Shown here: positions 2 through 21,535 of the stretch, in pieces
Numbering within the stretch: the first letter of the stretch is position 1
Layout: each line of letters opens with the position of its first letter
DNA from: Escherichia phage JLBYU10
Sequence record: OK272486.1
Strand: one strand, 5' to 3'
DNA: 50,987 nucleotides
The notes under the pieces: generated by a model
Databases searched by the model: none
What the model was told of the DNA's origin: nothing
What the model saw: only the letters and a program-made list of their open reading frames with translations
Program-made: the position numbers and the translations under genes

Positions 2-931
2 TTATAGCAGTGATTCGGGCTTGTAGAGTTTTCTTTCTACGCCCTGTTTAAAATTATCGTTAACAGGCATCATTATGTCAAGCCCTCTTTCCTCTGCCGC
101 GATTATCACATCACGATCATCTTTCCGGCAGACTACGCGCATTCTTCTTTCTCCTTTATATCTATGCGCAACCATTTCAAGATTTGAAGGAGTAAAACAG
201 GCCCACACCTCTTGACCAGTTGATAAATGAACATGCTGAGAATCAACCCAATCAAGGCACAAATAGATCGTCTTATCTGTGCTACCTGTTTTAACAACAG
301 ATCCGCGCGTGTAGTCGCGAGCTAAAAACCAATCCTTTCCATCCTCATCAATGAAAAGCACGTTACACATTTCATCATCCAGCCCGTCATCATGCACCAG
401 GTGACAAGGTAGCGCGTGAATGTATCGACCATCCTTGACGCCGCAATCATAATGACAATCTTCCGGCGGATATATCCCTTCATAAACACTTAAAGGTGTG
501 CGATCGAATTTTAATGTTTTTGCCATCACTTTTTCGCAGCATTCATGACTTGCCTGTTTCCCGAACGAGTAACCAGAAGAACGCGAAGCGCGTTTGTTTG
601 CTCTGATCCTGTAATCCTGCGGCACTTTTCCGAGGAAGCGGCCCAAAATGTTGATGGCCTCGCTGTAAGGTTCGCCAGTTAATTTCATTAACCAACCGAT
701 CCCCGTGTCGTTGCCGCATACGTTGCAGATCGCGCCGCCGTCGCCCTCTTCATTTAGCTTATCAGTCCATCTAAAACGATCCTTACCGCCGCAGTGTGGG
801 CAAGGTTGATGCTTTTTGTTGAAAACATCGCTATGCAGTCCGCAAATGCTTTGTAGTGCTTCACGCCATAACCCCTTCATATATGGCAAAACATCTTCTT
901 TCTGATAGGTCATAAAGTTTTCAGTATTCAT
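2..931 (-). CDS. DNA primase (zinc-ribbon plus TOPRIM-like domain)
   Basis: ORF 2..1009 trimmed to internal Met with GAGG RBS; CPHCGG...CNVCG zinc ribbon; YEG and FIDEDGKD acidic motifs resembling TOPRIM. Confidence 0.55.
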   Translation of the reverse strand: MNTENFMTYQKEDVLPYMKGLWREALQSICGLHSDVFNKKHQPCPHCGGKDRFRWTDKLNEEGDGGAICNVCGNDTGIGWLMKLTGEPYSEAINILGRFLGKVPQDYRIRANKRASRSSGYSFGKQASHECCEKVMAKTLKFDRTPLSVYEGIYPPEDCHYDCGVKDGRYIHALPCHLVHDDGLDDEMCNVLFIDEDGKDWFLARDYTRGSVVKTGSTDKTIYLCLDWVDSQHVHLSTGQEVWACFTPSNLEMVAHRYKGERRMRVVCRKDDRDVIIAAEERGLDIMMPVNDNFKQGVERKLYKPESLL

Positions 932-986
932 GGCAAACCTCAATAAAAAAGCCCAGCAAATATTATCATTTCGCTGAGCCTTATCA

Positions 987-1463
987 TTAGCTATTTGTGC
1001 TGTTATCACCTTTGTAGAATCGTCCGCCTGGTTCGTAGTCTGAATTTTTGACTACGCGCAACATCTCGTATTTGTCGCAACGGGTAGTAAGAGGCTTACC
1101 GTTAGAATCAAACCGCAGATCTGGACGACAAAATGATGCGCGGTATCCTTTGCATCCATTATATTTGTAGTCGTTATGCACCTTTTGTGCTCCAGCGGCT
1201 GAAATCATACCACGCTTTCGCCATTGGTTAACGACTTGCTGAGATACGCGTAGACGTCGAGCCATAGCAGGAACACCGCCATAATACTCGATCAGAATAT
1301 CCAAGCGAGATTTCAGGCTTGCTTTTACCTCATCTCGCAGGATAAGAAATCCGGTTCGGTGTTTTCGTGGCTTTTTGTCTTTACCTCGTCGCGTTCCGTT
1401 GTTACCGTTAATAGTGCGCTTGTCGATCTCACCCGTAGAAACCGCAATTCGTGCATCTTTCAT
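987..1463 (-). CDS. HTH DNA-binding protein (Cro/YdaS-like helix-turn-helix)
   Basis: ORF track; segment GGVPAMARRLRVSQQVVNQWRKRG looks like an HTH; basic N-terminus. Confidence 0.45.
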   Translation of the reverse strand: MKDARIAVSTGEIDKRTINGNNGTRRGKDKKPRKHRTGFLILRDEVKASLKSRLDILIEYYGGVPAMARRLRVSQQVVNQWRKRGMISAAGAQKVHNDYKYNGCKGYRASFCRPDLRFDSNGKPLTTRCDKYEMLRVVKNSDYEPGGRFYKGDNSTNS

Positions 1464-1550: not shown

Positions 1551-3548
1551 ATGATTCCAAATATCGAAAAACAAATATCAGCGTTAGGCGAGGCAGTAAT
1601 AAAAAGCATCCAAGAGCGATTCACGGTTGGCAATATAGTGCCTTATCCTTATCAGTGCGTTGCGTATGCCGAGATCGCAAAGCGCATGAAAAACTATGAG
1701 CATCCTTTCTTTGTTAAGGCTTCTGTGTCGGCTGGCAAAACATTGATGTTTGCGATGGTTGCGGCGCAATGCCGAAAAATGGGATTGAAAATGATGGTCC
1801 TTGCTCGCCAGGCTGAAATTGTTGATCAGGATTCGGAAGAGATCAGCAATCTTGGAGTGCCAAACTCAATCTATTGCGCCGGACTGAAAACAAAAAGCGC
1901 ATACTTTCCGATCGTGGTCGGTTCTGAGGGCACTGTAGTAAACGGATTGTTTAAGTCGTTAGGTGATTATGTTCCGCACGTTATCGGTATTGATGAATGT
2001 CACCAGGTGGATTGGGAGGATCTCGCGGACGCGATAGAAAATAATGAATCTTACCAGCAGATGACCACTAAGAAGGATTTGCCTGTACTGATTGGAGAAG
2101 AACAGCAATTTGATTCCAATGGCGATCCAATGTTCGGAACAGGGCGCACACAGTACACCGTAATAATCATGGAAATGATGCGCAGGTGTCGCGAGGCATA
2201 CGGGCACGAATTGCGAATATTCGGTATGACTGGATCTGAGTTTCGCGGCGTGGTTCCAATACTGGTTGAAGATAAGAACAAAAAGGGATTCTGGCGTGAG
2301 CAGGTGACTAACATAGACACAAACTACTTAATCAAATTTGGTTCGGTAGTGCCAACAAATTTCGGCGACGTAGGCGACCTGGGGTATGACCTTTCAGAGT
2401 TCGAAGCCAGTAGCGAGGATGGCGTTTCAGACTTTGACGCTAAAACATTGCGCAAGATGGAAGAAAAGATCCATCAAGACGCAACAATGACACAGAAAAT
2501 CATGGCTAAAGTCCATGAGATATGCAAAGACAGGAACGGAGTTTTAGTTACATGCGCAGGGGAAAGGCACTGCAATGAGGCCGCCGCCGCACTGCCGCCA
2601 GGCGTTGAATACAGGATCATAACTGGCAAGACTGGAGATAATCAGCGTAAAGAGTGGCTGAGGGAGGCATACGAGGGAAAAGTAAAATACATCTTCCAGG
2701 TACAGGCGCTTACCACTGGCGTTAACGTTCCGTTTTGGGATACTTCGGTAATACTGAGAAAGATAGGATCTCTAACATTGCTTATCCAGCTTTTGGGGCG
2801 CGGCATGCGACTGCTTAAGCAATGGCACATTGAGCAGGGATTCAAGAAAAAAGATCATCTTGTATTGGATTTTGCAGGTACTATGGATGAGTTAGGTGAT
2901 TTGTATTTCGATCCAATCCTTGAGCAAGCGCAATTTCAAAAGAGATTTACAAACGGGAAAGAGCCTAAGACTTGCCCGATATGTGGAACGCTAAACAGCT
3001 TTTACGCTCGCCGATGTATGCAAGTAGACGATAACGGGAAGCGATGTGAGCATTTTTGGACTTACAGAATTTGCGAGGACCAGGTAGATCCGAGAACGAA
3101 AAAGATAATCAAGCGCGGCTGCGGAACAAAAAACGACGTAGTGGCGAGAGTATGCCGTTGTTGCGATATTTCTCTTATCGATCCTAACGAGAAGTTAAGC
3201 GGTAAGCACTACACCAAAAACGATTGGTGCAACGTTAAATCTTTCCGCGTTGATATGACGAAAAACCAGAAAGGAATTATTTTTTGCTATGAGCTTGAGG
3301 CCAACGGCGACACGTTCAAGGCATACGAAAGATTTTTCCCTGAGTCAGAAAGCAACATTTGCCGGACGATATGGAGAAAAATAGCATTGCAGCACATACC
3401 GGATCGCAAGATTGCTGGTATGGTGGCGAGCTATAGAAATGCTCGTAAAATAATGTCATACGCTCATCACATCATGCCGCCTGTACGCGTAACGCATCGC
3501 AAAAACGGCAAAGGTGAGGATAACATTGCAAAACGGGAGTTTGTTTAA
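1551..3548 (+). CDS. SF2 DNA helicase with C-terminal Cys-rich zinc-binding region
   Basis: Walker A-like SAGKT, motif II IDECH, helicase C-terminal-like region, multiple CxxC near C-terminus. Confidence 0.65.
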   Translation: MIPNIEKQISALGEAVIKSIQERFTVGNIVPYPYQCVAYAEIAKRMKNYEHPFFVKASVSAGKTLMFAMVAAQCRKMGLKMMVLARQAEIVDQDSEEISNLGVPNSIYCAGLKTKSAYFPIVVGSEGTVVNGLFKSLGDYVPHVIGIDECHQVDWEDLADAIENNESYQQMTTKKDLPVLIGEEQQFDSNGDPMFGTGRTQYTVIIMEMMRRCREAYGHELRIFGMTGSEFRGVVPILVEDKNKKGFWREQVTNIDTNYLIKFGSVVPTNFGDVGDLGYDLSEFEASSEDGVSDFDAKTLRKMEEKIHQDATMTQKIMAKVHEICKDRNGVLVTCAGERHCNEAAAALPPGVEYRIITGKTGDNQRKEWLREAYEGKVKYIFQVQALTTGVNVPFWDTSVILRKIGSLTLLIQLLGRGMRLLKQWHIEQGFKKKDHLVLDFAGTMDELGDLYFDPILEQAQFQKRFTNGKEPKTCPICGTLNSFYARRCMQVDDNGKRCEHFWTYRICEDQVDPRTKKIIKRGCGTKNDVVARVCRCCDISLIDPNEKLSGKHYTKNDWCNVKSFRVDMTKNQKGIIFCYELEANGDTFKAYERFFPESESNICRTIWRKIALQHIPDRKIAGMVASYRNARKIMSYAHHIMPPVRVTHRKNGKGEDNIAKREFV

Positions 3549-3967
3549 TGGCTATAACTGATAAAGGAGATTATCTTGAGTTTTACGAAAGAGATCCAAC
3601 CGACACGAGAAAGGAAGTTAATCACCAGATAGATAGCTTTCAGTGGTTGACTTATGCTCATCCTTATTTGCTAGCGTGGCATACGGTAAACGAGAATGAG
3701 AAGTCGAAAGTAACGGCGATGATTGATCAGCAGTCCGGCTTGGTTAAGGGGGTAAGCGATTTCATCATCCTGATTGGTTCAAACGGAAAATACCCCTTTG
3801 CAGCGATTGAGATCAAACGAGTGAATAAATCAGGCAAGGGGAAAGCATCACCAGTCAGCGATGAACAAAAGGCTTTTTTGCGTCGCGTTCGCAGCTTAGG
3901 AGGATTCGCTGCGGTCGCCTACGGATTTAATCAGTTTAAGTTAGCTATTGAATACATGCTTAAATAG
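3548..3967 (+). CDS. VRR-NUC domain nuclease
   Basis: ATGA start-stop overlap with helicase; SDFIIL...AIEIKR...DEQKAF...GG.AAVAYG pattern typical of VRR-NUC. Confidence 0.6.
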   Translation: MAITDKGDYLEFYERDPTDTRKEVNHQIDSFQWLTYAHPYLLAWHTVNENEKSKVTAMIDQQSGLVKGVSDFIILIGSNGKYPFAAIEIKRVNKSGKGKASPVSDEQKAFLRRVRSLGGFAAVAYGFNQFKLAIEYMLK

Positions 3968-4007
3968 CACTTTTTGTTAAAACTGGCGCGATGGATTGCG
4001 CCATAAT
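3964..4007 (+). promoter_or_regulatory. Motif-type promoter-like unit: ATAGCACTTTTTGTTAAAAC, hairpin in 22-bp spacer, CATAAT
   Basis: Motif overlaps TAG stop of VRR-NUC gene; GGCGC..GCGCC stem in spacer; -10-like hexamer at fixed distance. Confidence 0.5.
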
Positions 4008-12679: not shown

Positions 12680-12721
12680 TTTCCACCTCATTTAAAAGGC
12701 GGCAAAACGCCGCCAGATTAA

Positions 12722-13057: not shown

Positions 13058-13270
13058 TCATTTCTTATTTTTCAGCTTAAATTTATGACCTGGAACACCA
13101 GCGCCAATATACCCATCGTTGTATTCCATTAAATAAAGGTGAAGACCATTATCTGAAATTACATGAGGATCTTCTTTGAGATTTCCCATTAGTGGATATT
13201 CTTTTCCGCGCGTAAATTTCCAAATTGAGTTATAAGTTTCTACGCATTTAAGTTTTAATTGCTTTGCCAT
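13058..13270 (-). CDS. hypothetical protein
   Basis: ORF track. Confidence 0.4.
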   Translation of the reverse strand: MAKQLKLKCVETYNSIWKFTRGKEYPLMGNLKEDPHVISDNGLHLYLMEYNDGYIGAGVPGHKFKLKNKK

Positions 13271-13551
13271 TATGCGATCCCAGTTACGTTAAAACTTACA
13301 GCCTTTGTTGCGCTAAATACATAAGCATCAACAGCGCCGCCAAATACACGAATTTTACCCTGGCCGTACTGCGCATTCATATTTCGCCAAACCGTTCTAT
13401 TAGAGCAGAATGCGCTACCAGTCTTAATAAGCGTATCCATATCTTTTCTTAGATCGCGATAGTCCAGCCAGAATCTAAAGGCACGCTGTTTAATTCGCGC
13501 CGCCTTGATTTTTTCTCTTGCGCTATTGAAATCATTCTTTTCGTATGCCAT
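13270..13551 (-). CDS. hypothetical protein
   Basis: ORF track; start-stop overlap with neighbours. Confidence 0.45.
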   Translation of the reverse strand: MAYEKNDFNSAREKIKAARIKQRAFRFWLDYRDLRKDMDTLIKTGSAFCSNRTVWRNMNAQYGQGKIRVFGGAVDAYVFSATKAVSFNVTGIA

Positions 13552-13748
13552 TAAATGATCTCCATGTATGTTTCAAAGCCATTTAACTTGAACAGTCCGT
13601 TTTCACATTTGCGCACGTTCCAAGTTAGCCCTGAGTGGTACGCCTCCATATCATCAAGGTCAATGGTGATTTCAGCACCTTTCTTAAACAAACCTTTTTC
13701 GTGAGACTTGTCGCGCTTAACAACTTTAACATCAACCTGATTTTCCAT
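13551..13748 (-). CDS. hypothetical protein
   Basis: ORF 13551..13799 trimmed to ATG with GAGGA RBS so that the motif promoter lies upstream. Confidence 0.4.
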   Translation of the reverse strand: MENQVDVKVVKRDKSHEKGLFKKGAEITIDLDDMEAYHSGLTWNVRKCENGLFKLNGFETYMEII

Positions 13749-13779
13749 CTTTAAATCCTCGTTTGTTGTCGATGGGTGT

Positions 13780-13823
13780 AATATACCATTCAGGAGCACA
13801 TCGTTTTTAACAAAAAGTGCTAT
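13780..13823 (-). promoter_or_regulatory. Motif-type promoter-like unit (minus): ATAGCACTTTTTGTTAAAAA, 22-bp spacer, TATATT
   Basis: Motif overlaps TAG stop of upstream gene. Confidence 0.45.
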
Positions 13824-14110
13824 TCAACAACTTTTCCAGTTAAAGAGATAAGTTGCCTTGTAATCTTGTGGCGGCGATACTTACGCGCAACAACAGGAAG
13901 GCTTTCACCGCTTTGATGGCCAAAGCAGATCGGCAATTCACCTTCAAGGGAGCGGAAGCCACCAAATTCAAGATCCCGCACTGGCTTCGTGCGCCAGGCT
14001 TCAATAAATCCTCGCTCGTCACGAGTGATATAGCGGTATATGTTCGGGAGGGGCAATTGTATCCCCTCAAAATCCACGGTGTCGGTATAGCTATAAAACT
14101 TAGAACTCAT
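13820..14110 (-). CDS. hypothetical protein
   Basis: ORF 13820..14161 trimmed to Met coupled to upstream small ORF. Confidence 0.4.
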   Translation of the reverse strand: MSSKFYSYTDTVDFEGIQLPLPNIYRYITRDERGFIEAWRTKPVRDLEFGGFRSLEGELPICFGHQSGESLPVVARKYRRHKITRQLISLTGKVVE

Positions 14111-14252
14111 AGTCAACAACTCCAAACTCATTGACGATTTGGGCCTTGTAGAAGCCGCCATTTTTCGCCAGGTTGTAACAAGCGGCTACGGTTTCAAATT
14201 CGCGCGCTTCCGGCTGGCTGTTTTCGTGTTCCCAGGTAATCAGAGTAACCAT
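14100..14252 (-). CDS. small hypothetical protein (50 aa), not in ORF track
   Basis: Hand translation MVTLITWEHENSQPEAREFETVAACYNLAKNGGFYKAQIVNEFGVVDYEF; GAGGA RBS. Confidence 0.3.
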   Translation of the reverse strand: MVTLITWEHENSQPEAREFETVAACYNLAKNGGFYKAQIVNEFGVVDYEF

Positions 14253-14285
14253 TTTAAAATCCTCGCATTCGTTGTCGATGCGTGT

Positions 14286-14329
14286 AATGTACAGGAATGC
14301 GAGGATTGAGTTTTAACAAAAAGTGCTAT
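14286..14329 (-). promoter_or_regulatory. Motif-type promoter-like unit (minus): ATAGCACTTTTTGTTAAAAC, 22-bp spacer, TACATT, 10-bp inverted repeat CCTCGCATTC/GAATGCGAGG around it
   Basis: Motif adjacent to TAA stop of upstream gene; long stem flanks the -10-like hexamer. Confidence 0.45.
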
Positions 14330-14593
14330 TTAGTCCAGGAATTCGATTTCACGCTCTCCAGTTAACGGATCCACAAGCCAGAATCCGAGCGGTTCGCCGT
14401 GAACACCGCCATAGAATCCAAGCGCCGTCAGATCTTCACCTTTAACAAATACCAGTTTTCCGCTACGGCCTACGTGAGACACGTTAACGATAACCGGAAA
14501 TGTGCGATCCTTAAATGCAGGACGCAGGGCGTAACATCCGTTGTTGAGCAAACGTGCTTTGCGCTTAACTGGAATAGGTGCATTAATTTTCAT
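14330..14593 (-). CDS. hypothetical protein
   Basis: ORF track; AAGGAG RBS. Confidence 0.5.
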   Translation of the reverse strand: MKINAPIPVKRKARLLNNGCYALRPAFKDRTFPVIVNVSHVGRSGKLVFVKGEDLTALGFYGGVHGEPLGFWLVDPLTGEREIEFLD

Positions 14594-14819
14594 GGTTATT
14601 ACTCCTTATCGTAAAGATTTAAAGACGTATAGTTTATTGCGGTAACTATATATCCGCATTGTTATTTCTCGCAGTGCAATATATTCCTTCCTGTTTTCCG
14701 GCAGACTGGCGAGCAACAACAGGCAGTATTTATAAGCGCGGTCAAGATTTCTTTCCGTGCCCCTGCAATATCCCTTGTTGCGCCTGGAACGGTACAGCCA
14801 TAACAATTTCTTGAACATT

Positions 14820-15029
14820 TCAGATACGCCCATACAGATCACAGACTTCGTTGATAAAACAGCGTTGAGACTCTTTATCGTCACGCTCAAAAATTGCGCG
14901 GCATTCAAACTTAAGATTATGCACGATGACTACAACCATATTTTCAGGCATTGAGCGGTTATAGCGTCGCGCGTCAGTGATTAAAACATCCATACCCATC
15001 TCATGTGCTTTCTTGATCACATCCAACAT
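14820..15029 (-). CDS. hypothetical protein
   Basis: ORF 14820..15053 trimmed to ATG with GGAGAAG RBS. Confidence 0.4.
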   Translation of the reverse strand: MLDVIKKAHEMGMDVLITDARRYNRSMPENMVVVIVHNLKFECRAIFERDDKESQRCFINEVCDLYGRI

Positions 15030-15283
15030 TTTTTCTTCTCCTGCAATAAGCAAACATCATTGATAAAATCAGCACGGCCCTTAATGTTGCTGATGTGGAA
15101 CGTCTTTTCAGCGTACAGGCCATCACCTTCAATCACGATCATTACGCGAGTCGGTTTATTCACGGGCGCACACGAAAAGAGTGGTCGCGCCGGAAGAAAT
15201 TTAGTAGCCACATCCAGGTTAGCCCTGGCGGCCCTGCAAAATGCCTCCGCCAGATCCAAATCATTTTCGGTAATCACCGCCAT
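15017..15283 (-). CDS. hypothetical protein
   Basis: ORF track. Confidence 0.4.
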   Translation of the reverse strand: MAVITENDLDLAEAFCRAARANLDVATKFLPARPLFSCAPVNKPTRVMIVIEGDGLYAEKTFHISNIKGRADFINDVCLLQEKKKCWM

Positions 15284-15555
15284 TACTTCTTGATCTCCTC
15301 ACTGATAAATTTCAGCACCTGACGCAAGAAAACCTCGTTGTTGATAGTCGCTGGCAATTCTTCCTTCACTTCTTGCGGCAGATAGATATTGCCATGCCAG
15401 GTCAAGCAATCGTAGTTGATACGATAAGAGCAAAGCCACTCGCAATCGTTATCTGCTTCCCAAATGCAGAGTTGCAGAACATCGCCAAAATCTTCAACAG
15501 TCAGATCCAGACCGTGACGCTTAGCGAAATTGAAAGTGGTTTTGCTGATGTTCAT
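15283..15555 (-). CDS. hypothetical protein, first gene of leftward block
   Basis: ORF track; CAGGAGATAGC RBS. Confidence 0.5.
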   Translation of the reverse strand: MNISKTTFNFAKRHGLDLTVEDFGDVLQLCIWEADNDCEWLCSYRINYDCLTWHGNIYLPQEVKEELPATINNEVFLRQVLKFISEEIKK

Positions 15556-15589
15556 TGCTATCTCCTGAGCGGTTCGTTTTGATGTGTGT

Positions 15590-15633
15590 AATGTACCCGA
15601 TCAGACGGCCTGAGTTTTAACAAAAAGTGCTAT
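15590..15633 (-). promoter_or_regulatory. Motif-type promoter-like unit (minus): ATAGCACTTTTTGTTAAAAC, 22-bp spacer, TACATT
   Basis: Only motif copy heading the leftward gene block; not preceded by a gene. Confidence 0.5.
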
Positions 15634-15660
15634 TTGACGGTTAGCGCCAGGATTGTGATC

Positions 15661-15752
15661 GAAATAATCAAAAGTAATCATTCGTAATCAAATAACGTCA
15701 AAATGATGATTGCCTTTGCAAACTTGATGAGAAAAGTAATCACGTTTAATCA
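15661..15752. repeat. Phased short direct repeats (TAATCA at 10-bp spacing, then GTAATCA/TTAATCA)
   Basis: Three TAATCA copies exactly one helical turn apart, two more related copies ~50 bp downstream; upstream of leftward promoter. Confidence 0.5.
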
Positions 15753-15899
15753 TTGGTTGCAGGGGAGATAGTGAAACCCTCCCCTCTTGCCTCACTTTTC
15801 CGCCTGGCTGTCAGTGGTTGTTATGTTCCGTTCCCGCCTGTTCTTTTGTTGACCTTCCGCAAAATACGATAACAAAAAATAACAAACAATACCTATATA

Positions 15900-16165
15900 A
15901 TACATTGAAAAATAAGGATTATTTATTTATATGTATCTATATATTCTCTTTTGTTATCTTGGTTATTGTGGTATTTGGTGGGGGTATATAGTTTTTGTGT
16001 ATCTGTATGTGTGTATGGGTATGTAGGGGCATATATATCTATATGGCACTTTCCGCGAGAAAACTTCGATAACAGGCAATGATAACATTGATTTATAAGG
16101 AAAAATAACGCCAATATTGTTATTGTGCCACCATGTAAAATTGATAAAACACGCGGGAACAAGAA
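15900..16165. repeat. TG/TA-rich non-coding element, copy 1 (homologous to 45000..45240)
   Basis: Shares TTATTTATTTAT-TGTAT...CTTTTGTTATCT...TTGTGGT..TTTGGT and GGGAACAAGAAAAA blocks with copy 2. Confidence 0.6.
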
Positions 16166-16172
16166 AAAACAG

Positions 16173-16201
16173 TTGACACATTAAATAGCATTATTGATAA
16201 T
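16173..16201 (+). promoter_or_regulatory. sigma70-type promoter (TTGACA, 17 bp, GATAAT)
   Basis: Canonical hexamers with 17-bp spacer ~30 bp upstream of first rightward early gene. Confidence 0.6.
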
Positions 16202-16230
16202 GCCGACACCTAACAACCAGGAGGTAGAAA

Positions 16231-16695
16231 ATGAGCGAGCAATCATTCACTGACACGCTGCGCCGTGCCGCTATTATGCTGGCTAATGGCGAGGAAGAGA
16301 CGATCAAGATTCCTGACGCGTATTTGCAGGTCCACATGTTCGGCAAGAAGTCGGCAAGCAATCCGGCGGCCTACATTCGCCAGATCATGAGTCGAGTGCC
16401 AGAAGTCGCCGAGCGGGGGAGCGTATCCGTTACCCGTGGCGTTTACGGGCCGGAAGATGAAAACTTCGGTAGCACTTTCTACGAGGTGCGCATTGTTGAA
16501 GGCCGTCGCAAGGTTTACAACAAAGATGCACTGGAAAGGGCAGTACGCCAGGCTAAGCGCAAGGTTGCAGAGGCGATCATTGATATGTCACCAAACCTGG
16601 CAAACTATGCGCCGGAAGAGTATGAAACATTATCAAAGGCCGTCGCTGACTTTCACGCGATGATCAAAAAAACTTTCCTGGAGGATGAGCAATGA
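16231..16695 (+). CDS. hypothetical early protein
   Basis: ORF track; AGGAGG RBS; first gene after strong promoter. Confidence 0.55.
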   Translation: MSEQSFTDTLRRAAIMLANGEEETIKIPDAYLQVHMFGKKSASNPAAYIRQIMSRVPEVAERGSVSVTRGVYGPEDENFGSTFYEVRIVEGRRKVYNKDALERAVRQAKRKVAEAIIDMSPNLANYAPEEYETLSKAVADFHAMIKKTFLEDEQ

Positions 16696-16964
16696 AAAAG
16701 GCGTTAATCGGCGTTTTGGTGGCAATGGCATTCCTGACCGGATGCGAAGAAGATGGCGCGCATGTTGGCAATGTGCAGATGGCTAACCCTGGCGATGACT
16801 ACAGCGTAAGGGAGCTATTCACCGCCGATGGTTGCACTGTTTACCGATTCTATGACGGTCGCACTGTTTACTTCACCAACTGCAAGGGAACGACTAGCTG
16901 GGAAGTGTCGAAAAGCAACGGCAAAGGCACGAAAACAGAATACATGACCGTTGAGACAAAATAG
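16692..16964 (+). CDS. lipoprotein (possible superinfection-exclusion type)
   Basis: Signal peptide with lipobox FLTGC; ATGA overlap with upstream gene. Confidence 0.5.
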   Translation: MKKALIGVLVAMAFLTGCEEDGAHVGNVQMANPGDDYSVRELFTADGCTVYRFYDGRTVYFTNCKGTTSWEVSKSNGKGTKTEYMTVETK

Positions 16965-17003
16965 CACTTTTTGTTAAAACTCAAATGTGGGGCCAGGTAT
17001 AAT
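16961..17003 (+). promoter_or_regulatory. Motif-type promoter-like unit: ATAGCACTTTTTGTTAAAAC, hairpin GGGCC..GGCCC, TATAAT
   Basis: Motif overlaps TAG stop of lipoprotein gene; TATAAT in hairpin loop 21 bp after TTGTTA. Confidence 0.5.
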
Positions 17004-17033
17004 GGCCCTACTTTCAACGAAGGAGATAAAACG

Positions 17034-17255
17034 ATGTACATTAAAAAGAAGATGAAATGCGTTTCCGTTAACTATGCTTGCTCCGGCATGTTCAAGCCTG
17101 GCGAAATCTATACGGCGCAAAAACTGAAATCATCAACCGGATCTTTTTACGTGAGCAATAGTAAGGGGCATCGCATGTTCCTGAACGGCGGCGAAGGCAC
17201 TAAGGTTATGGCACACGCTATGGTAATGGCTGAATTTGAGGAAGTGAAACAATGA
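17034..17255 (+). CDS. small hypothetical protein, paralog A
   Basis: ORF 16971..17255 trimmed to Met with AAGGAGA RBS; shares FxLNGxEGTK..A...V.AEFExV with next ORF. Confidence 0.45.
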   Translation: MYIKKKMKCVSVNYACSGMFKPGEIYTAQKLKSSTGSFYVSNSKGHRMFLNGGEGTKVMAHAMVMAEFEEVKQ

Positions 17256-17485
17256 TCATTGAAAACAATTTTCTTTGCGTTAAGAGCAATAGACCATTCT
17301 TCACGCCTGGCAAGGTGTACCAGGGCAAGAAGGACAAAAGAGATGGTCACTCTTATCATGTTTACTGCAACAACGGATACAAGTTTTACCTTAACGGCGA
17401 GAATGGAACTAAGATCGTTGCGTTTGAAAACGTAGTTGCAGAGTTCGAGCAGGTTACAGACGCTGAATTTGAGGAAGTGCAATAA
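17252..17485 (+). CDS. small hypothetical protein, paralog B
   Basis: ORF track; tandem paralog of previous gene. Confidence 0.45.
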   Translation: MIIENNFLCVKSNRPFFTPGKVYQGKKDKRDGHSYHVYCNNGYKFYLNGENGTKIVAFENVVAEFEQVTDAEFEEVQ

Positions 17486-17667
17486 TGGATGATTTTACTC
17501 GGCTTGTTCTAGGCTGGATTGTTTTTCTTTTTGCGTGGCTTATCCACTGTGCGAGGCATAAATTCAGACTGAGCTATGATAATTCATTCGTTATGACCTG
17601 CTTCAGTATTCCAGGATGGATCATTTTGCTTGTGGCTACTGCTGAATACATCCATAAAACATTTTAA
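17485..17667 (+). CDS. small membrane protein
   Basis: ORF track; two hydrophobic segments. Confidence 0.4.
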   Translation: MDDFTRLVLGWIVFLFAWLIHCARHKFRLSYDNSFVMTCFSIPGWIILLVATAEYIHKTF

Positions 17668-17677
17668 GGATTAATAT

Positions 17678-18217
17678 ATGAAAAAATACACTTTCGAACT
17701 ATGGGGCAAGAAATACGAATTAATGACCAGCAAGCCGATTGTTGTGTGCGATCTCGACGGCACGCTATCGGACGGATCGCATCGTTTGCATTTGCTGCCA
17801 ACTGAAAACTTGCACCTTACGGAATCGTGGAGCGAATTTAACAGGGCCGCCGCCGGAGATTCACCGATTAAAAGCACGATCGCGGTTATTAACGGTTTAT
17901 GGGTGTCGGGATTTGCCATCGTCATCTTGACCGGACGCAGCGACGAGGTTCGCTATGAAACCTGCAAATGGTTGAATGAGAACGGCGTGAAGTTTGACGA
18001 AATCATCATGCGCCGCCAGGAGGACAACCGAAAGGATACTGTTATTAAAGAAGAAGCCTTGCGCGCTATTGGCCTGGACAACATTGTTTGCGCCTTTGAC
18101 GATTCGCCGAACGTGGTTAAGCACTTCCGCAGCTTGGGGATCACAACCTATCAGGTCACGGAATACGACAAGCCACACGCTCACCTGCAATCTCACGGCG
18201 TGGAGTGTTTAAAATGA
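17678..18217 (+). CDS. HAD-family phosphatase (polynucleotide 3'-phosphatase-like)
   Basis: DLDGTL motif I of HAD superfamily near N-terminus; further acidic motifs. Confidence 0.55.
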   Translation: MKKYTFELWGKKYELMTSKPIVVCDLDGTLSDGSHRLHLLPTENLHLTESWSEFNRAAAGDSPIKSTIAVINGLWVSGFAIVILTGRSDEVRYETCKWLNENGVKFDEIIMRRQEDNRKDTVIKEEALRAIGLDNIVCAFDDSPNVVKHFRSLGITTYQVTEYDKPHAHLQSHGVECLK

Positions 18218-18375
18218 CTTGGTTGCTTTTAATCTTTGTCACAAGTTACAACTCCGCAGCTATTGAGTCGCAGGAGTTCCACGGCGAATCAAGATGCCAG
18301 GAAGCGCGAAAGCAAGTTGTTCTCCACATGTCAGATAGTGGTAAGGATGTAACAGCGTTATGCGTTCGTAAATAG
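18214..18375 (+). CDS. small hypothetical protein (53 aa), not in ORF track
   Basis: Hand translation MTWLLLIFVTSYNSAAIESQEF...; ATGA overlap upstream; TAG stop embedded in motif. Confidence 0.3.
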   Translation: MTWLLLIFVTSYNSAAIESQEFHGESRCQEARKQVVLHMSDSGKDVTALCVRK

Positions 18376-18415
18376 CACTTTTTGCAAAAACAGATTATCG
18401 GGCTTGCGGTATAGT
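18372..18415 (+). promoter_or_regulatory. Motif-type promoter-like unit: ATAGCACTTTTTGCAAAAAC, hairpin GGGCTT..AAGCCC, TATAGT
   Basis: Motif overlaps TAG stop; -10-like hexamer in hairpin loop, 22-bp spacer. Confidence 0.5.
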
Positions 18416-18446
18416 AAGCCCATAAACAACAAACGAGGATTAAATC

Positions 18447-18710
18447 ATGGCTAACAAGATTGAGTTTTTTAAAGCGGTGGACGTTATCGACGGCGAGCCT
18501 AGCTTCTTTGCTATCCATTCTATTGACGGCAAGGATATTGGGTACGACGTTATCCGTCGAGATGGAATCTCAAAACTTAGTGACCTGGTAGGCTATATTG
18601 TGTCAAACGGAAAATGCGCATGGCCCGATTCGCCACGAGAGCCACGCCGCCGCAACATGATTGATCCTGAATTGCTTTACACGCTGGTAGTAGAGGGAGA
18701 AAATAAATGA
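18447..18710 (+). CDS. hypothetical protein
   Basis: ORF track; ACGAGGA RBS. Confidence 0.45.
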   Translation: MANKIEFFKAVDVIDGEPSFFAIHSIDGKDIGYDVIRRDGISKLSDLVGYIVSNGKCAWPDSPREPRRRNMIDPELLYTLVVEGENK

Positions 18711-18892
18711 TTTGGTTACTTGCTTTTTTGGTTGTTTTTCTTTACATTTCAGGCTTGTTTACGTTCCGTGCGTTGGTGAAATATTCTGACGCGACAGACA
18801 AGGACGATAAAATCGTTCTCGCTTTCTGGTTTGTTTGGGTATGGTTAGCAATTTACGAGATCATCAGAGACAAACAGAAATTTGAGTGGTGA
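18707..18892 (+). CDS. small membrane protein
   Basis: ORF track; hydrophobic. Confidence 0.4.
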   Translation: MIWLLAFLVVFLYISGLFTFRALVKYSDATDKDDKIVLAFWFVWVWLAIYEIIRDKQKFEW

Positions 18893-18950
18893 TTCTTGCT
18901 ATGGCGCATTCATGCAGTGCGCCATGTTGAGAAAACCTAAAGGGGGGGGA

Positions 18951-19103
18951 ATGATGCGTAACTTTGAAAAAATCATTACCAAAAAGAAGCGTCGCGGGTA
19001 CGATGAGCATGTGGAGCTTGTGAAAAAGCAACGCAAGAAGCGCAACGAAGACAAGAAGCGCGGGAAAAAAATTAATGCGATTTTTCGCTATGGAGATCAT
19101 TAA
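18951..19103 (+). CDS. small basic protein
   Basis: ORF 18882..19103 trimmed to Met after G-rich RBS; Lys/Arg-rich. Confidence 0.3.
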   Translation: MMRNFEKIITKKKRRGYDEHVELVKKQRKKRNEDKKRGKKINAIFRYGDH

Positions 19104-19105
19104 TC

Positions 19106-19696
19106 ATGAAACGAGACATTATCATCCTTAATGGGCCGCCAGGTTGCGGGAAGGACACTATTGCAGCTTACCTAACGGGCCATCGTTACCCAGCGGTCAA
19201 GGCGTCATTCAAACAGCCGATGTTCGATATTGCTTTTTCTATGCTGGGCGTGTACCGATACGATGAATTTATGGACCTGTACAACGACCGAGAGCAAAAA
19301 GAAAAGCCTCAAGTTATCTTAGGCGGCAAGTCACCTCGACAATTCATGATCTGGATTAGTGAGGATGTAATGAAGCCAGTTTTTGGGGAGCAGTATTTCG
19401 GGCGTCGAATGGTTGAAGAGATTCACGAGATGTACCGAGATTTGGCGGTTGTGATCAGTGATGGCGGATTCCCCGAAGAAATCAAGCCGCTTGTTAAGGC
19501 AGGGCATGAAGTGCATATTTGCCGATTGCATCGCGACGGCTTCACGTTTGCTGGCGATTCGAGAGACTACATTGACCTGAGCGGTTATCACTATCGAATC
19601 CATCACTATGACTTCCACTTGCAGGACGGCAAGCCGGAACTGGCTGTAAACGAGATCGTCAATACTGTCAAATGGAAGCACACACAGATTAAATAG
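19106..19696 (+). CDS. P-loop nucleotide/polynucleotide kinase-like protein
   Basis: Walker A GPPGCGKDT at N-terminus, adenylate-kinase-like. Confidence 0.55.
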   Translation: MKRDIIILNGPPGCGKDTIAAYLTGHRYPAVKASFKQPMFDIAFSMLGVYRYDEFMDLYNDREQKEKPQVILGGKSPRQFMIWISEDVMKPVFGEQYFGRRMVEEIHEMYRDLAVVISDGGFPEEIKPLVKAGHEVHICRLHRDGFTFAGDSRDYIDLSGYHYRIHHYDFHLQDGKPELAVNEIVNTVKWKHTQIK

Positions 19697-19736
19697 CACG
19701 AATTGCTAAACGCGGGGTTATCGGCCCCGCTATAAT
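19693..19736 (+). promoter_or_regulatory. Motif-type promoter-like unit (degenerate motif ATAGCACGAATTGCTAAAC), hairpin GCGGGG..CCCCGC, TATAAT
   Basis: Motif overlaps TAG stop of kinase gene; 22-bp spacer. Confidence 0.45.
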
Positions 19737-19766
19737 GCGCACATCAACAATCAAGAGGAAATCACA

Positions 19767-20147
19767 ATGGTTAACATCAGAAAAATTCGCGTCGGCACTA
19801 AATTCTTAGTTACTTACGCAATTCCAGATAGCGGAATGAAGAAGGGCCAGATTGTTAAGGTTGATAGCAAAAGATTCGGAATCCCTGGCATCAATGGCTA
19901 TCTAATCAATAAAGATCTTGGATTCGGCGGCTTCGCTATCCGTTCGCTTGATGGTATTGTTGCTACCCTCAAGCAAATCACTAACCATCGCGGCTGCCCA
20001 ATCAAGACGATTAAAGCGCCAACCAATTACGGCAAACTGGATAATCGTCGAATCCGCCGCCTGGCGCGTAACGCGTTAAAATTCCGTGGCGTAGGCGATG
20101 ATTTCTACTATGGTTACAAGAGGATCGCGCGCAATGCTGGGAAATAA
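19767..20147 (+). CDS. hypothetical protein
   Basis: ORF track. Confidence 0.45.
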   Translation: MVNIRKIRVGTKFLVTYAIPDSGMKKGQIVKVDSKRFGIPGINGYLINKDLGFGGFAIRSLDGIVATLKQITNHRGCPIKTIKAPTNYGKLDNRRIRRLARNALKFRGVGDDFYYGYKRIARNAGK

Positions 20148-20174
20148 CAATAACGCAACGAATCCTAAGCCACC

Positions 20175-20209
20175 TTTTGATTTTCATTCCGCAATGATTG
20201 CGGTATTAT
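20175..20209 (+). promoter_or_regulatory. Promoter-like unit without the motif: TTGATT, 21-bp spacer containing perfect palindrome CCGCAATGATTGCGG, TATTAT
   Basis: Same hairpin-in-spacer design as motif units. Confidence 0.35.
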
Positions 20210-20246
20210 CAATGCTACTTTTTCTTTATAGCATGAGGGCGCTACT

Positions 20247-20495
20247 ATGGTTTTTAACGCATTGAAACGACTGTTTAAGCCGGAATACCGGATCGTATTT
20301 TGCCGAGACTGTTCTACTTATCATGTGCAGCGACGCAGCTTAGGCGGCAATTGGCACTATGTTACAGACGACTTTTTCGGCATTATTGCCACTGAATTTA
20401 AGTATTACAGCGATGCTTATATGTACGTCAAGAAGCGCCACCGCTTACGCAAGTGTCGTTTTTCCGTGCTGATTCACGTTAATGATTGTTACTGA
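20247..20495 (+). CDS. hypothetical protein
   Basis: ORF track. Confidence 0.4.
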   Translation: MVFNALKRLFKPEYRIVFCRDCSTYHVQRRSLGGNWHYVTDDFFGIIATEFKYYSDAYMYVKKRHRLRKCRFSVLIHVNDCY

Positions 20496-20502
20496 GGTTA
20501 AA

Positions 20503-20685
20503 ATGAAAACTGGTATTATTATTCTTTTCCTGATCCTTTTCGGCAGTCATTTAACCATTAACTATGAGGGCATTATGGCCTTTTGGGGCAACTTGATGGT
20601 TTTTGCCGCTGGTTCAATTACTGGCTACTCTGACGGGAAAAAGGACGGCGTTCGCAAGATGCTGATGGGACTTAAACAAAAATAA
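20503..20685 (+). CDS. small membrane protein
   Basis: ORF 20482..20685 trimmed to Met with GAGG RBS. Confidence 0.35.
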   Translation: MKTGIIILFLILFGSHLTINYEGIMAFWGNLMVFAAGSITGYSDGKKDGVRKMLMGLKQK

Positions 20686-20696
20686 GGGGATCTGAA

Positions 20697-20987
20697 ATGG
20701 CAAACAAAACTTACCGCAAACTACTGGTTAACGCTTTTGAAAACATCGCGCAGTGTAACAAGTGGAACGACTCTAAACACTCGCCAGTCACAATGAAGCG
20801 CGCCGGATTCAAAAATGCTCGTTCATGGGCGCGAGCTTTCGCAGCTTGCTATATGCCGGATGGCGGACTAGGGGCGATGAACGATTTTTTGATCAATATG
20901 ATAGAGGAAGCGGCGCGAGAGGATCGACCGCTGACACAGCGAGATTTTGACGACTTCGCGCGCGATGAGCTTTACTATCTGAGCTAA
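20697..20987 (+). CDS. hypothetical protein
   Basis: ORF track. Confidence 0.45.
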   Translation: MANKTYRKLLVNAFENIAQCNKWNDSKHSPVTMKRAGFKNARSWARAFAACYMPDGGLGAMNDFLINMIEEAAREDRPLTQRDFDDFARDELYYLS

Positions 20988-21030
20988 TAGCACTTTTTGT
21001 TAAAACTTCCGCAAGGGCATTTGGTAAAGT
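20987..21030 (+). promoter_or_regulatory. Motif-type promoter-like unit: ATAGCACTTTTTGTTAAAAC, hairpin AAGGGCA..TGCCCTT, TAAAGT
   Basis: Motif abuts TAA stop; -10-like hexamer inside hairpin, 22-bp spacer. Confidence 0.45.
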
Positions 21031-21062
21031 GCCCTTATTGAAGCGAAACAGAGGAAAGCGCA

Positions 21063-21275
21063 ATGAAAATCAAAATCACCAAAATCGACACTATCAACGG
21101 CGACGGATCAATCACTCTTGAGCAATGTGGCCTGGTTGTTGGTGATGTGCTGGAAGTTGACGGACATTTCAGCGACGGATCTTATTGTGTTATTGCGCCG
21201 CGTAACAGCGAGTTTATCAAGGCTGGCGATAATATTAGTGTTAACCATGACGAATGCGAGGTAGTAGAAGAATGA
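21063..21275 (+). CDS. hypothetical protein
   Basis: ORF track. Confidence 0.45.
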   Translation: MKIKITKIDTINGDGSITLEQCGLVVGDVLEVDGHFSDGSYCVIAPRNSEFIKAGDNISVNHDECEVVEE

Positions 21276-21535
21276 TCACGATTAACCTGTCAGAGCAGCA
21301 AGCGCGCATTATGTTGTCGGCCTTCGGTTGGCGAGACAATGACGGTTTACAGGCTACAGTTAAAATTTATGAGCCAGTGGCGCGTGAAGTTTTCAGCCAG
21401 CTAGAACACGCATTTGATCCTGCTGGGACTGAGCAAGCGGAAACTGCCGCTTGGTTCGGAGAGAACGGATACAGAGATCAGCAAGTCGAAAACTGGAAGC
21501 GAATAAACGAGACTATGGAGGAATCAGGTTTATGA
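21272..21535 (+). CDS. hypothetical protein
   Basis: ORF 21254..21535 trimmed to Met overlapping upstream stop. Confidence 0.4.
   Translation: MITINLSEQQARIMLSAFGWRDNDGLQATVKIYEPVAREVFSQLEHAFDPAGTEQAETAAWFGENGYRDQQVENWKRINETMEESGL

What the first reader, a model, noticed from the sequence alone, without database searches (positions are those of the whole stretch)
17034..17485. Tandem paralogous small genes in the early block
ORFs 17034..17255 and 17252..17485 overlap by ATGA and share a C-terminal block (F.LNG.EGTK..A...V.AEFE.V) while the N-terminal halves differ, suggesting recent duplication and divergence, a pattern often seen in phage specificity or anti-defence factors.
Basis: seen in the sequence. 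Interest (0 to 1): 0.4.

Follow-up and report, generated by a model that had tools for sequence, protein, structure and literature searches.

The report
Two old paralogous small phage genes
Two adjacent small genes of a T1-like coliphage are real but anciently diverged relatives of unknown function, placed side by side by cassette shuffling at a conserved junction rather than by recent duplication, which is ordinary phage mosaicism.

Summary
ORF A (17034..17255, 73 aa) and ORF B (17252..17485, 77 aa) overlap by ATGA and are homologous: BLASTP 38% identity, E 6e-16. The similarity runs over the whole length, not only the C-terminal block. The interpretation of a recent duplication fails: dN is 0.58, synonymous sites are saturated, and nucleotide identity is 53%. 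Each type has its own orthologues under purifying selection.

The window is a Warwickvirus-like (Drexlerviridae, Tempevirinae) coliphage. About 100 phage records carry the family in one slot upstream of the PNKP-like phosphatase gene: A or a third allele A' alone (about 70), A/A'+B (27), or B alone (Henu8).

Gene B is bracketed by a 26-nt direct repeat, and every allele ends in its 15-nt core TTTGAGGAAGTGAAA. That sequence encodes FEEVK, carries a GAGG Shine-Dalgarno-like element, and leads into the next start codon. It precedes at least six different downstream genes. B's extra tail (TDAEFEEVQ) is a second copy of this junction.

The proteins model as small six-stranded beta-barrels with no Pfam family and no significant PDB match. 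They may be remotely related to the DUF7244 SH3-like proteins of T1. A third distant paralogue lies at 13058..13270(-). Function is unknown; an accessory host-interaction binding module is my inference. Interest is low to moderate.

The parts
16971..17008 (+). Conserved upstream block with a sigma-70-like promoter match (TTAAAA-18 nt-TATAAT, 16974-17003). The -10 element is flanked by the 5-bp inverted repeat GGGCC/GGCCC.
   Evidence: Promoter scan, 10/12 matches. The 38-mer is unique in the window. The block is almost identical in AV105, tunus and Henu8, whether A or B follows it. Promoter activity itself is inferred.
17020..17025 (+). Shine-Dalgarno AAGGAG, 8 nt upstream of the ATG of gene A.
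   Evidence: Read directly from the sequence. Conserved in the alignment. It supports ATG 17034 as the start rather than the upstream TTG 16971 used in some GenBank records.
17034..17255 (+). Gene A: 73 aa, pI 9.5, small beta-barrel protein. This is the widespread allele of the slot.
   Evidence: ORF. Orthologues at 86-100% identity in about 84 of 100 phage records. dN/dS is about 0.16-0.3 in the more divergent pairs. The BFVD model of the tonn orthologue superposes on the B model. pI.
17229..17254 (+). Junction repeat, copy 1 (GCTGAATTTGAGGAAGTGAAACAATG). It holds the last codons of A (AEFEEVKQ), a GAGG Shine-Dalgarno-like element, and the ATG of B.
   Evidence: Direct repeat D1, motif search, junction census.
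17252..17485 (+). Gene B: 77 aa, pI 5.6, diverged paralogue of A. It is an accessory gene, present in 27 of about 100 family-bearing records.
   Evidence: ORF, BLASTP to A, census by tblastn. dN/dS is about 0.1 against the Henu8 orthologue. The AF2 model has pLDDT 88, with six strands and a low-confidence C-terminal helix.
17456..17482 (+). Extra C-terminal tail of B (TDAEFEEVQ). It is a second copy of the A-type 3' end, beyond B's own AEFEQV strand.
   Evidence: Alignments. The last block of the model has mean pLDDT 66. It is 18/18 nt identical to the end of A, whereas B's own internal motif differs from it at synonymous sites. Divergent family members P0028, P0029, P0033 and P0039 lack it.
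17462..17487 (+). Junction repeat, copy 2 (GCTGAATTTGAGGAAGTGCAATAATG). It holds the end of B, a GAGG element, and the ATG of the next gene (TAATG overlap).
17485..17667 (+). A 60-aa hydrophobic (two-segment) protein, translationally coupled to B. It is one of at least six alternative genes that follow the junction in related phages.
   Evidence: ORF. The same gene directly follows A in the tunus isolate and follows B in brachmannus. Alternatives are listed.
17678..18217 (+). HAD-type phosphatase (PNKP phosphatase-domain-like, 179 aa). It is the conserved downstream anchor of the variable slot.
   Evidence: Pfam HAD_PNKP 9.9e-21 and PHROG 415 1.8e-66. It directly follows A in morffagbaw.
13058..13270 (-). 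Distant third paralogue C: 70 aa, pI 9.4. It lies in the leftward small-gene block.
   Evidence: hmmsearch with the A/B profile gives E 0.009 among 602 window ORFs. Profile-profile hhalign gives probability 91.9%, E 7e-7 over the N-terminal 44 columns. The AF2 model has six strands and pLDDT 80. Its BFVD neighbours overlap those of B.

Best explanation
Shown: A and B are two anciently diverged members of a small beta-barrel protein family. At sequence level the family is essentially confined to Tempevirinae T1-like phages. Both are real genes under purifying selection. They sit in a single variable slot between a conserved promoter/RBS block and the PNKP-like phosphatase gene. Across related phages the slot holds A, A' or B alone, or A/A' followed by B. 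Every allele ends in the nearly invariant sequence TTTGAGGAAGTGAAA, followed by a stop/start overlap. That sequence is followed by at least six different downstream genes. In the window it occurs twice, as a 26-nt direct repeat that exactly brackets B.

Inferred, evolutionary part: the tandem arose by recombination at this junction, which stacked an old B allele behind A. B can be lost again by recombination between the two repeat copies. The junction is held constant at synonymous positions for two reasons: it supplies the Shine-Dalgarno (GAGG, 7-10 nt before the next ATG) and the coupling site for whatever gene follows, and it is the crossover point.

Inferred, expression: A, B, the 60-aa membrane protein and the phosphatase are translated as a coupled string from one transcript (ATGA and TAATG overlaps).

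Inferred, weakest part, function: the proteins are dispensable accessory binding modules. They are standalone SH3-like barrels without catalytic motifs, and they probably bind a host or phage macromolecule during infection. A is basic and B is acidic-tailed, which suggests different partners or modes. I put about 0.85 on the evolutionary and anatomical part and about 0.35 on the host-interaction binding-module part.
For: Homology: BLASTP E 6e-16; same fold, TM 0.85-0.89.

Old divergence and purifying selection: dN 0.58 with dS saturated for A against B; B from Henu8 against the others 0.12/1.16; A from L014 against the window 0.06/0.38.

One slot: the upstream block is identical before A or before B alone. 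Census with B as query: 99 records, 27 with B at 90% or more (the listed ones each hold two places), Henu8 with B only, 70 with A-type only. Census with A as query: 100 records, including a 58% allele A'. NorthRox is A'+B.

Junction: the 26-nt repeat brackets B. There are 25 instances in 20 loci, 24 of them with at most one mismatch, before B, MDDFTR, MKTNKR, M[DE]QNKT, MIIYVV and pnk. B's internal AEFEQ[VI] varies at synonymous sites, which serves as an internal control.

Dispensability and ongoing rearrangement: JLBYU19, the closest genome (97.4%), has a deletion that fuses the lipoprotein N-terminus to the last 25 residues of A. Tonnikala has A fused to the next gene by a 1-nt deletion. P0019 and P0027 are fused or internally deleted forms.

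Patchy presence of B among genomes that are about 97% identical.

Narrow family with no cellular homologues: an exhaustive profile search of 1.84 billion representatives gave only about 11 genuine small proteins (including fragments) among 20 hits.

Structure: B model pLDDT 88, six strands.
Against: No experiment or characterised homologue bears on function. There is no Pfam or NCBIfam hit, no significant PDB fold match (best E 0.64), and the PDB sequence hits are spurious repeat proteins.

All B-type proteins, including the 79%-identical Henu8 one and P0019, already carry the double motif. The tail is therefore older than the present stacking, and the order of events (tandem first, or replacement first) is not resolved.

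The GAGG-to-ATG spacer before B is 10 nt, at the long end for a Shine-Dalgarno. With stop/start overlap the element may not be needed. Nucleotide constancy could come from recombinational homogenisation alone.

Promoter and timing ('early') rest on a consensus match only.
Confidence: 0.6

Rival explanations
1. Recent tandem duplication followed by rapid, positively selected divergence in an arms race.
For: The genes are adjacent, co-oriented and overlapping, with the same fold and length. A direct repeat flanks the second copy. The closest B pairs have somewhat raised dN/dS of about 0.35, but on very few substitutions.
Against: dS between A and B is saturated and nucleotide identity is 53%. 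TRF finds nothing. A, A' and B each have conserved orthologues across many genomes. B alone occupies A's place in Henu8. dN/dS is about 0.1 over the longer B comparison.
Confidence: 0.05
2. A and B are divergent members of the DUF7244 standalone SH3 family of T1-like phages. Like that family (as proposed for KanT1/T1), they would assist cell lysis or peptidoglycan binding.
For: Foldseek places DUF7244 proteins among the BFVD neighbours of B (E 0.065, TM 0.56-0.63) and of C. Profile-profile A6 against a DUF7244 alignment gives probability 49%, E 1.7e-4 over the N-terminal 38 columns, with shared KC[IV], IY and LNG features. The divergent member P0033 scores 13.4 bits on PF23896. Tempevirinae lack the SH3 gene, according to PMC13164509.
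Against: Pfam finds no DUF7244 hit for A or B at E up to 0.1. The lysis cassette is at 5467-7977, 9 kb away and in another transcription unit, whereas DUF7244 is reported exclusively next to the lysis module. A and B have no signal peptide. The lysis role of DUF7244 is itself only a hypothesis.
Confidence: 0.15
3. A and C are small nucleic-acid-binding barrels (Sso7d- or Sm-like in style) that modulate host or phage DNA/RNA. B would be an acidic-tailed variant that regulates or mimics this.
For: A has pI 9.5 (+5.7) and C has pI 9.4, with a lysine-rich N-terminus. B has pI 5.6, owing to the acidic tail. The barrel is small and has no catalytic motifs. The genes are adjacent to nucleotide-metabolism genes: the phosphatase and the dNMP kinase.
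Against: There is no sequence or fold match to any nucleic-acid-binding family. Charge alone is weak evidence.
Confidence: 0.15
4. One or both ORFs are not genes, and the antisense 111-aa ORF (17147..17482, minus strand) or an RNA is the real feature.
For: The antisense ORF is long. There is one weak Rfam match (snR76, E 0.45, far below gathering).
Against: Purifying selection acts in the plus-strand frames. The proteins are conserved across about 100 genomes. The fold prediction is confident. The antisense frame is broken by three stops in L004. No Rfam family reaches threshold.
Confidence: 0.02

Closest known systems
PHROG 9122 (and more weakly PHROG 10169): phage protein families of unknown function
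   Same: B matches phrog_9122 end to end (E 3.3e-10) and A matches it more weakly (E 1.8e-4). Both match phrog_10169 weakly.
   Different: The PHROG carries no function, so membership names the family but explains nothing.
Pfam DUF7244 (PF23896, SH3 clan): the standalone SH3 protein next to the lysis cassette of T1/KanT1 (PMC13164509)
   Same: It is a small all-beta protein of Drexlerviridae with the shared sequence features KC[IV]...IY...LNG...EF. It is a fold-level neighbour in BFVD, and the profile-profile probability is 49%.
   Different: It falls below Pfam thresholds. A/B have an extra beta-hairpin (GEGTKVMAHAMV) and are 15-20 residues longer. The genomic position is different, upstream of the phosphatase rather than at the lysis module. 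The subfamily is different: Tempevirinae against Tunavirinae, Braunvirinae and Rogunavirinae.
Mosaic gene exchange at short conserved boundary sequences in tailed phages. This is the modular-evolution and 'linker' idea from lambdoid phages, cited from my own knowledge and not checked in a paper here.
   Same: A short, nearly invariant sequence at a gene boundary is shared by otherwise unrelated neighbours. It coincides with the points where gene content changes between genomes.
   Different: Here the boundary sequence lies inside the coding region of the upstream gene (its last five codons). It is also plausibly the ribosome-binding site of the downstream gene. It appears twice in one genome, flanking a stacked paralogue.
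SH3-like small beta-barrels in the PDB (Pif1 2B domain, Lck/Sho1 SH3, FeoA)
   Same: These are the top-ranked PDB Foldseek hits.
   Different: None is significant: best E 0.64, TM at most 0.39, rmsd 6-12 A. The resemblance is only at the level of 'small beta-barrel'.

Membership tests
Paralogous pair (homology of A and B) | Significant pairwise sequence similarity over most of the length | tested here: met
   BLASTP gives 38% identity over 71 residues, E 6e-16.
Paralogous pair (homology of A and B) | Same three-dimensional fold | tested here: met
   The B model against the BFVD model of the A orthologue of phage tonn gives TM 0.85/0.89 and rmsd 1.2 A over 73 columns.
Recent tandem duplication | Low synonymous divergence and a detectable DNA-level tandem repeat | tested here: not met
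   dS is saturated, dN is 0.58 and nucleotide identity is 53%. TRF reports no array. Only the 26-nt junction is repeated.
PHROG 9122 | Full-length HMM match | tested here: met
   B gives E 3.3e-10 (residues 9-68 on profile 5-63 of 64). A gives E 1.8e-4 (residues 6-71 on profile 2-63).
Pfam DUF7244 (SH3 clan) | Score at or above the Pfam gathering threshold (27 bits) | tested here: not met
   A and B give no hit at E up to 0.1. The divergent relative P0033 scores 13.4 bits.
Pfam DUF7244 (SH3 clan) | Remote homology by profile-profile comparison | tested here: inconclusive
   hhalign of A6 against A5 (T1 ST14 and relatives) gives probability 49%, E 1.7e-4 over 38 columns. C against DUF7244 gives probability 0.3%.
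Pfam DUF7244 (SH3 clan) | Location immediately beside the holin-endolysin-spanin cassette (PMC13164509) | tested here: not met
   The exonuclease, endolysin and spanin lie at 5467-7977. A/B lie at 17034-17485 in a different block.
SH3 fold (solved structures) | Significant structural match to an SH3 or SH3-like domain in the PDB | tested here: inconclusive
   SH3-like domains rank at the top, but the best E is 0.64 and TM is at most 0.39.
Known anti-defence or host-takeover protein families | Homology to a characterised inhibitor, or experimental inhibition of a defence system | not testable with these tools
   No anti-defence HMM library was available. Pfam, NCBIfam and PHROGs give no functional name. 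The literature search found nothing on this family.
Expressed protein-coding genes | Purifying selection in the proposed frame and conservation across genomes | tested here: met
   dN/dS is 0.1-0.4. About 100 records carry the family. The antisense frame is not conserved.

The most novel reading that the evidence does not exclude
A, A', B, C, T1 gp58/gp68-like proteins and DUF7244 would together form one large, fast-diversifying superfamily of standalone SH3-like barrels in Drexlerviridae. Its members would be interchangeable target-binding modules, for example inhibitors or decoys for host defence or host-takeover targets. The FEEVK/GAGG junction would be a dedicated plug-and-play cassette site: it lets new alleles be stacked or swapped while automatically supplying translation signals for the next gene.
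Probability: 0.12. Interest if true: 0.6.

Novelty: new member of a known kind. Interest (0 to 1): 0.25.

Why it matters
As it stands this is a well-documented but ordinary case of phage mosaicism. An accessory small-gene family of unknown function shows presence/absence and allele polymorphism among near-identical genomes. Its modest value lies in three points. First, it corrects a tempting misreading: a tandem arrangement does not mean a recent duplication. Second, it gives a clean natural example of a coding 3' end that doubles as a ribosome-binding and recombination junction for whatever gene follows. Third, it defines a tractable set of natural variants (A, A', B, A+B, A'+B, a truncation and fusions) for testing what these barrels do. 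If they turn out to be defence-related binding modules, the allele series would map onto host range.

Tried and rejected
1. Word-indexed protein search with an A/B profile found only close T1-like relatives (27 hits).
2. The exhaustive profile search of 1.84 billion representatives gave 20 hits. The nine large ones are repeat proteins (those scanned carry Ig, PA14, PEGA or beta-propeller domains) that score by summing many weak stretches, so I rejected them as spurious.
3. The PDB sequence search hit only the designed 'Cake' propellers, with no stretch passing on its own. Rejected.
4. PDB Foldseek found nothing significant.
5. Pfam and NCBIfam gave no family for A, B or C.
6. IMG/VR yielded only 8 loci, so the census rests on the INPHARED tblastn searches.
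7. hhalign of the A/B profile against other small window ORFs (21063, 19767, 13551, 14330, 12722 and others) gave probabilities of 9% or less. Only 13058..13270(-) held up.
8. My first all-ORF hhalign script timed out.
9. Rfam and TRF on the region found nothing.
10. Literature searches for Drexlerviridae anti-defence, Warwickvirus and gp54 gave no functional data on this family.
11. Toxin-antitoxin-like or obligate heterodimer idea: rejected, because A and B each occur alone in viable phages.
12. I considered whether the 16971 TTG start used by some annotators is right. I rejected it in favour of ATG 17034, because the extension would run through the promoter-like -10 element and the AAGGAG sits 8 nt before ATG 17034. 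This is an inference.

Full report
**1. The observation**

The window carries ATG 17034 to TGA 17255 (gene A, 73 aa) and ATG 17252 to TAA 17485 (gene B, 77 aa) on the + strand. They share the four bases ATGA at 17252-17255. BLASTP of A against B gives 27/71 identities (38%), 58% positives, three gapped positions and E 6e-16, so the similarity is real.

It is not confined to the C-terminal block. The alignment runs from residue 1 to 71. The N-terminal half contains family-invariant positions: C9, F20, G23, Y26 and K30 in A numbering. The antisense 111-aa ORF (17147..17482, - strand) is interrupted by three stops in a related locus, so it is not a gene. No Rfam family reaches threshold.

**2. 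Where the window comes from**

The window is a T1-like coliphage of Drexlerviridae, Tempevirinae, close to Warwickvirus. Over 10-30 kb it is 96.5-97.4% identical to JLBYU19, JLBYU07, AV105, tonnikala and tunus. At 50,987 bases it is about the size of a whole genome of this group.

A and B lie in a rightward block of small genes, in this order:
- a DUF7174 protein (16231..16695);
- a DUF4884 lipoprotein (16692..16964);
- A, then B;
- a 60-aa hydrophobic protein (17485..17667);
- a HAD phosphatase of the PNKP type (17678..18217);
- further on, a dNMP kinase (19106..19696) and the terminase.

The lysis cassette (exonuclease, endolysin, spanin) is at 5467-7977, which is not adjacent.

**3. Not a recent duplication**

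Codon-aligned, A and B are 53% identical at the nucleotide level, with dN 0.58 and dS too saturated for NG86 to compute. Tandem Repeats Finder sees no array.

Each type has its own orthologues:
- B in Henu8 is 79% identical to the window's B, with dN/dS of about 0.1 (0.12-0.13 over 1.2-1.7).
- A orthologues show 0.06/0.38, 0.04/0.31 and similar values.

Both are therefore protein-coding genes under purifying selection, and their split is old.

**4. One slot, several alleles, optional stacking**

tblastn with B finds 99 phage records:
- 27 have B at 90% or more; those listed each hold two places (the A or A' gene and B);
- the two Henu8 records have B only;
- 70 have only an A-type gene.

tblastn with A finds 100 records. 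These include a third allele, A', at about 58% identity to A, in tunus RefSeq, atuna, XY3, BEK12A and NorthRox. NorthRox is A'+B.

The DNA alignment of the window, AV105, tunus and Henu8 shows the same upstream block, AAATAGCAC...TTGTTAAAACTCAAATGTGGGGCCAGGTATAATGGCC...AAGGAGATAAAACG. This block holds the promoter-like match and the RBS. It precedes A in three genomes and B alone in Henu8, so B there sits exactly in A's place.

Among genomes about 97% identical to the window, B is present in some (AV105, JLBYU01, tuinn) and absent in others (JLBYU07, tonnikala, tunus, tonijn). Gain or loss of B is therefore recent, even though the gene is old.

**5. The junction**

The repeat finder reports one direct repeat in the region: 17229-17254 GCTGAATTTGAGGAAGTGAAACAATG and 17462-17487 GCTGAATTTGAGGAAGTGCAATAATG. 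It is 92% identical, with 18 nt exact and a spacing of 233, so it exactly brackets gene B. A 17-nt version occurs nowhere else in the window, against 0.06 expected by chance.

Across 20 loci I found 25 ends of A, A' or B. In 24 of them the 15-mer TTTGAGGAAGTGAAA is present with at most one mismatch. This holds even though A' differs in the codons just upstream (ATFEEVK against AEFEEVK).

The gene that follows differs between genomes:
- B (window, AV105, brachmannus, L004, NorthRox);
- the MDDFTR membrane protein (window, brachmannus, tunus isolate);
- the MKTNKR protein (AV105, Henu8, phiE31-2 and others);
- a diverged M[DE]QNKT variant (JLBYU07, tunus RefSeq);
- an unrelated 61-aa MIIYVV protein (L006);
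- the phosphatase itself (morffagbaw).

The 15-mer encodes FEEVK and contains GAGG 7-10 nt before the next ATG. It is followed by a stop/start overlap (ATGA, TAATG, or an ATG inside the last codons).

B's own internal homologue of the motif (AEFEQ[VI]) varies at synonymous sites between genomes: TTC/TTT, CAG/CAA, GTT/ATT/ATC. The terminal copy does not vary in this way. This is an internal control showing an extra constraint, or homogenisation, on the terminal copy. I infer that the constraint is ribosome binding and translational coupling for the next gene, and that the same sequence is the crossover point for cassette exchange.

**6. B's tail**

All B-type proteins end ...AEFEQ[VI]-TD-AEFEEV..., that is, their own last strand plus a second copy of the A-type end. 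Divergent family members (P0028 = A', P0029, P0033, P0039) stop after the first motif. The tail is the lowest-confidence part of the model, with pLDDT 66.

I read the tail as a relic of the recombination that placed a B-type body in front of an A-type 3' end. Even Henu8 and P0019 carry it, so that event predates the present distribution. I cannot say whether the tandem or the replacement came first.

**7. Ongoing rearrangement and dispensability**

- JLBYU19, the closest genome, has a deletion that fuses the lipoprotein signal peptide to the last 25 residues of A. It removes the promoter block and two-thirds of A.
- Tonnikala gp36 is A fused in frame to the MKTNKR protein by a 1-nt deletion in an A-run.
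- Metagenomic variants include a leader-B fusion (P0019) and an internally deleted A (P0027).

The genes are therefore accessory, at least on laboratory hosts.

**8. What the proteins are**

AlphaFold2 with a 12-sequence alignment gives B a mean pLDDT of 88 and pTM of 0.75. The model has six strands, and only the relic tail is helical. The conserved AEFE[EQ]V is the last strand.

- BFVD Foldseek recovers the A orthologue (TM 0.85-0.89). Beyond that it finds only uncharacterised small proteins of siphoviruses, many from Drexlerviridae, with TM 0.6-0.76. DUF7244 proteins appear lower down, at E 0.065.
- PDB Foldseek has no significant hit. The best E is 0.64, with SH3-like domains at TM of 0.39 or less.
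- Pfam and NCBIfam give nothing. PHROGs gives phrog_9122 and phrog_10169, both of unknown function.
- The exhaustive search of 1.84 billion representatives returns about eleven genuine small proteins, several of them fragments, plus spurious repeat proteins and no cellular homologue.
- One divergent member (P0033) sits two genes upstream of a 179-aa gene the size of the phosphatase, so synteny is kept.
- A is basic (pI 9.5). B is acidic (pI 5.6), largely because of the tail.

**9. Wider family**

A third, distant paralogue lies at 13058..13270 on the - strand (70 aa).
- hmmsearch with the A/B profile gives E 0.009 among 602 ORFs.
- Profile-profile comparison gives probability 91.9% and E 7e-7 over the N-terminal 44 columns.
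- The model has six strands and pLDDT 80.
- Its BFVD neighbours overlap those of B.

In T1 itself, gp58 and gp68 give weak hits to the A/B profile.

The named family nearest to all of this is DUF7244. It is the standalone SH3 protein recently described beside the lysis cassette of T1 and KanT1, and it is absent from Tempevirinae (PMC13164509). I built a DUF7244 alignment from T1 ST14 and its relatives. Comparison with the extended A/B alignment gave probability 49% and E 1.7e-4 over 38 columns. This is suggestive but not established. By Pfam's own threshold A and B are not members, and their genomic position differs.

**10. Mechanism, with the status of each step**

Shown:
- paralogy, old divergence, purifying selection and a single slot with alleles;
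- the repeat bracketing B, the junction shared by all alleles and followed by different genes, and accessory status.

Inferred:
- the junction acts as Shine-Dalgarno/coupling site and as recombination site;
- stacking, and loss of B, occur through the repeat;
- A, B, the membrane protein and the phosphatase are co-transcribed from the 16974-17003 promoter-like site.

Inferred and weak:
- the barrels are binding modules that act on a host or phage macromolecule (host takeover, defence evasion or nucleic-acid binding).

Nothing here tests the weak inference.

**11. Verdict**

The locus is an ordinary though neatly resolved example of phage cassette mosaicism involving an uncharacterised, lineage-restricted small beta-barrel family. 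Interest is low to moderate.

Noticed in passing
window 13551..13799 (- strand): An 82-aa ORF matches Pfam PF25180 'Phage antiviral trigger protein Gp54' at E 3.6e-38 (129.6 bits) and phrog_7421 at 1e-31. It therefore belongs to a family named as a trigger of a bacterial defence system, and it sits next to the distant paralogue C.
   Followed up: partly
window 13058..13270 (- strand): A third, distant member of the A/B family (hhalign probability 91.9%) lies in the leftward small-gene block. It shares the N-terminal two-thirds and then diverges, ending in a lysine-rich tail.
   Followed up: yes
L016 (JLBYU19) 913..1030; window equivalent about 16692..17180: The closest relative has a deletion joining the lipoprotein signal peptide to the C-terminal 25 residues of A. 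The breakpoint lies at a short similar sequence (TCCTGA.CGG...GCGAAG) present in both genes.
   Followed up: partly
L017 (JLBYU07) 1928..2242; window equivalent 17678..18710: In JLBYU07 the phosphatase gene is truncated after about 33 residues and fused to the C-terminal part of the 87-aa protein that the window encodes at 18447..18710. The PNKP-like phosphatase is therefore also dispensable in that isolate.
   Followed up: no
window 16692..16964 (+ strand): A 90-aa protein has a lipobox (LTGC) and a Pfam DUF4884 match (5.2e-8) immediately upstream of the A promoter block. In other Tempevirinae it is replaced, together with DUF7174, by a protein of about 296 aa. The region left of the promoter block is therefore also a variable slot.
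   Followed up: partly
window 16988..17008: The -10-like TATAAT upstream of A is embedded in a perfect 5-bp inverted repeat (GGGCC AGGTATAAT GGCCC). The repeat is kept in the window and AV105 but carries one or two substitutions in its right arm in tunus and Henu8. It could be an operator or just a conserved promoter context.
   Followed up: no
(database hits to window 16200-18300 and 10000-30000): Eleven to 22 records labelled Campylobacter phage (host C. jejuni) match this T1-like coliphage at megablast level, yet none carries A/B. This looks like mislabelled or contaminating coliphage sequence in those records.
   Followed up: no
window 19767..20147 (+ strand): BFVD neighbours of both B and C include proteins of about 127-135 aa from T1-like phages (Jahat_MG145, atuna, ADB-2, ESCO41, NBD2). 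The window's 126-aa ORF has an N-terminal segment of similar sequence style, so it might carry the same barrel. However, hhalign gave only 1% probability, and I could not model it.
   Followed up: partly
L022 (phage T1) 7387..7590 and 3619..3993: T1 gp58 (67 aa, ending ...GQFEIND) and gp68 (124 aa) give weak hits to the A/B profile (E 3.5e-4 and 4.5e-5 in a 22-protein search). This hints that the barrel superfamily is multi-copy in Tunavirinae too.
   Followed up: partly
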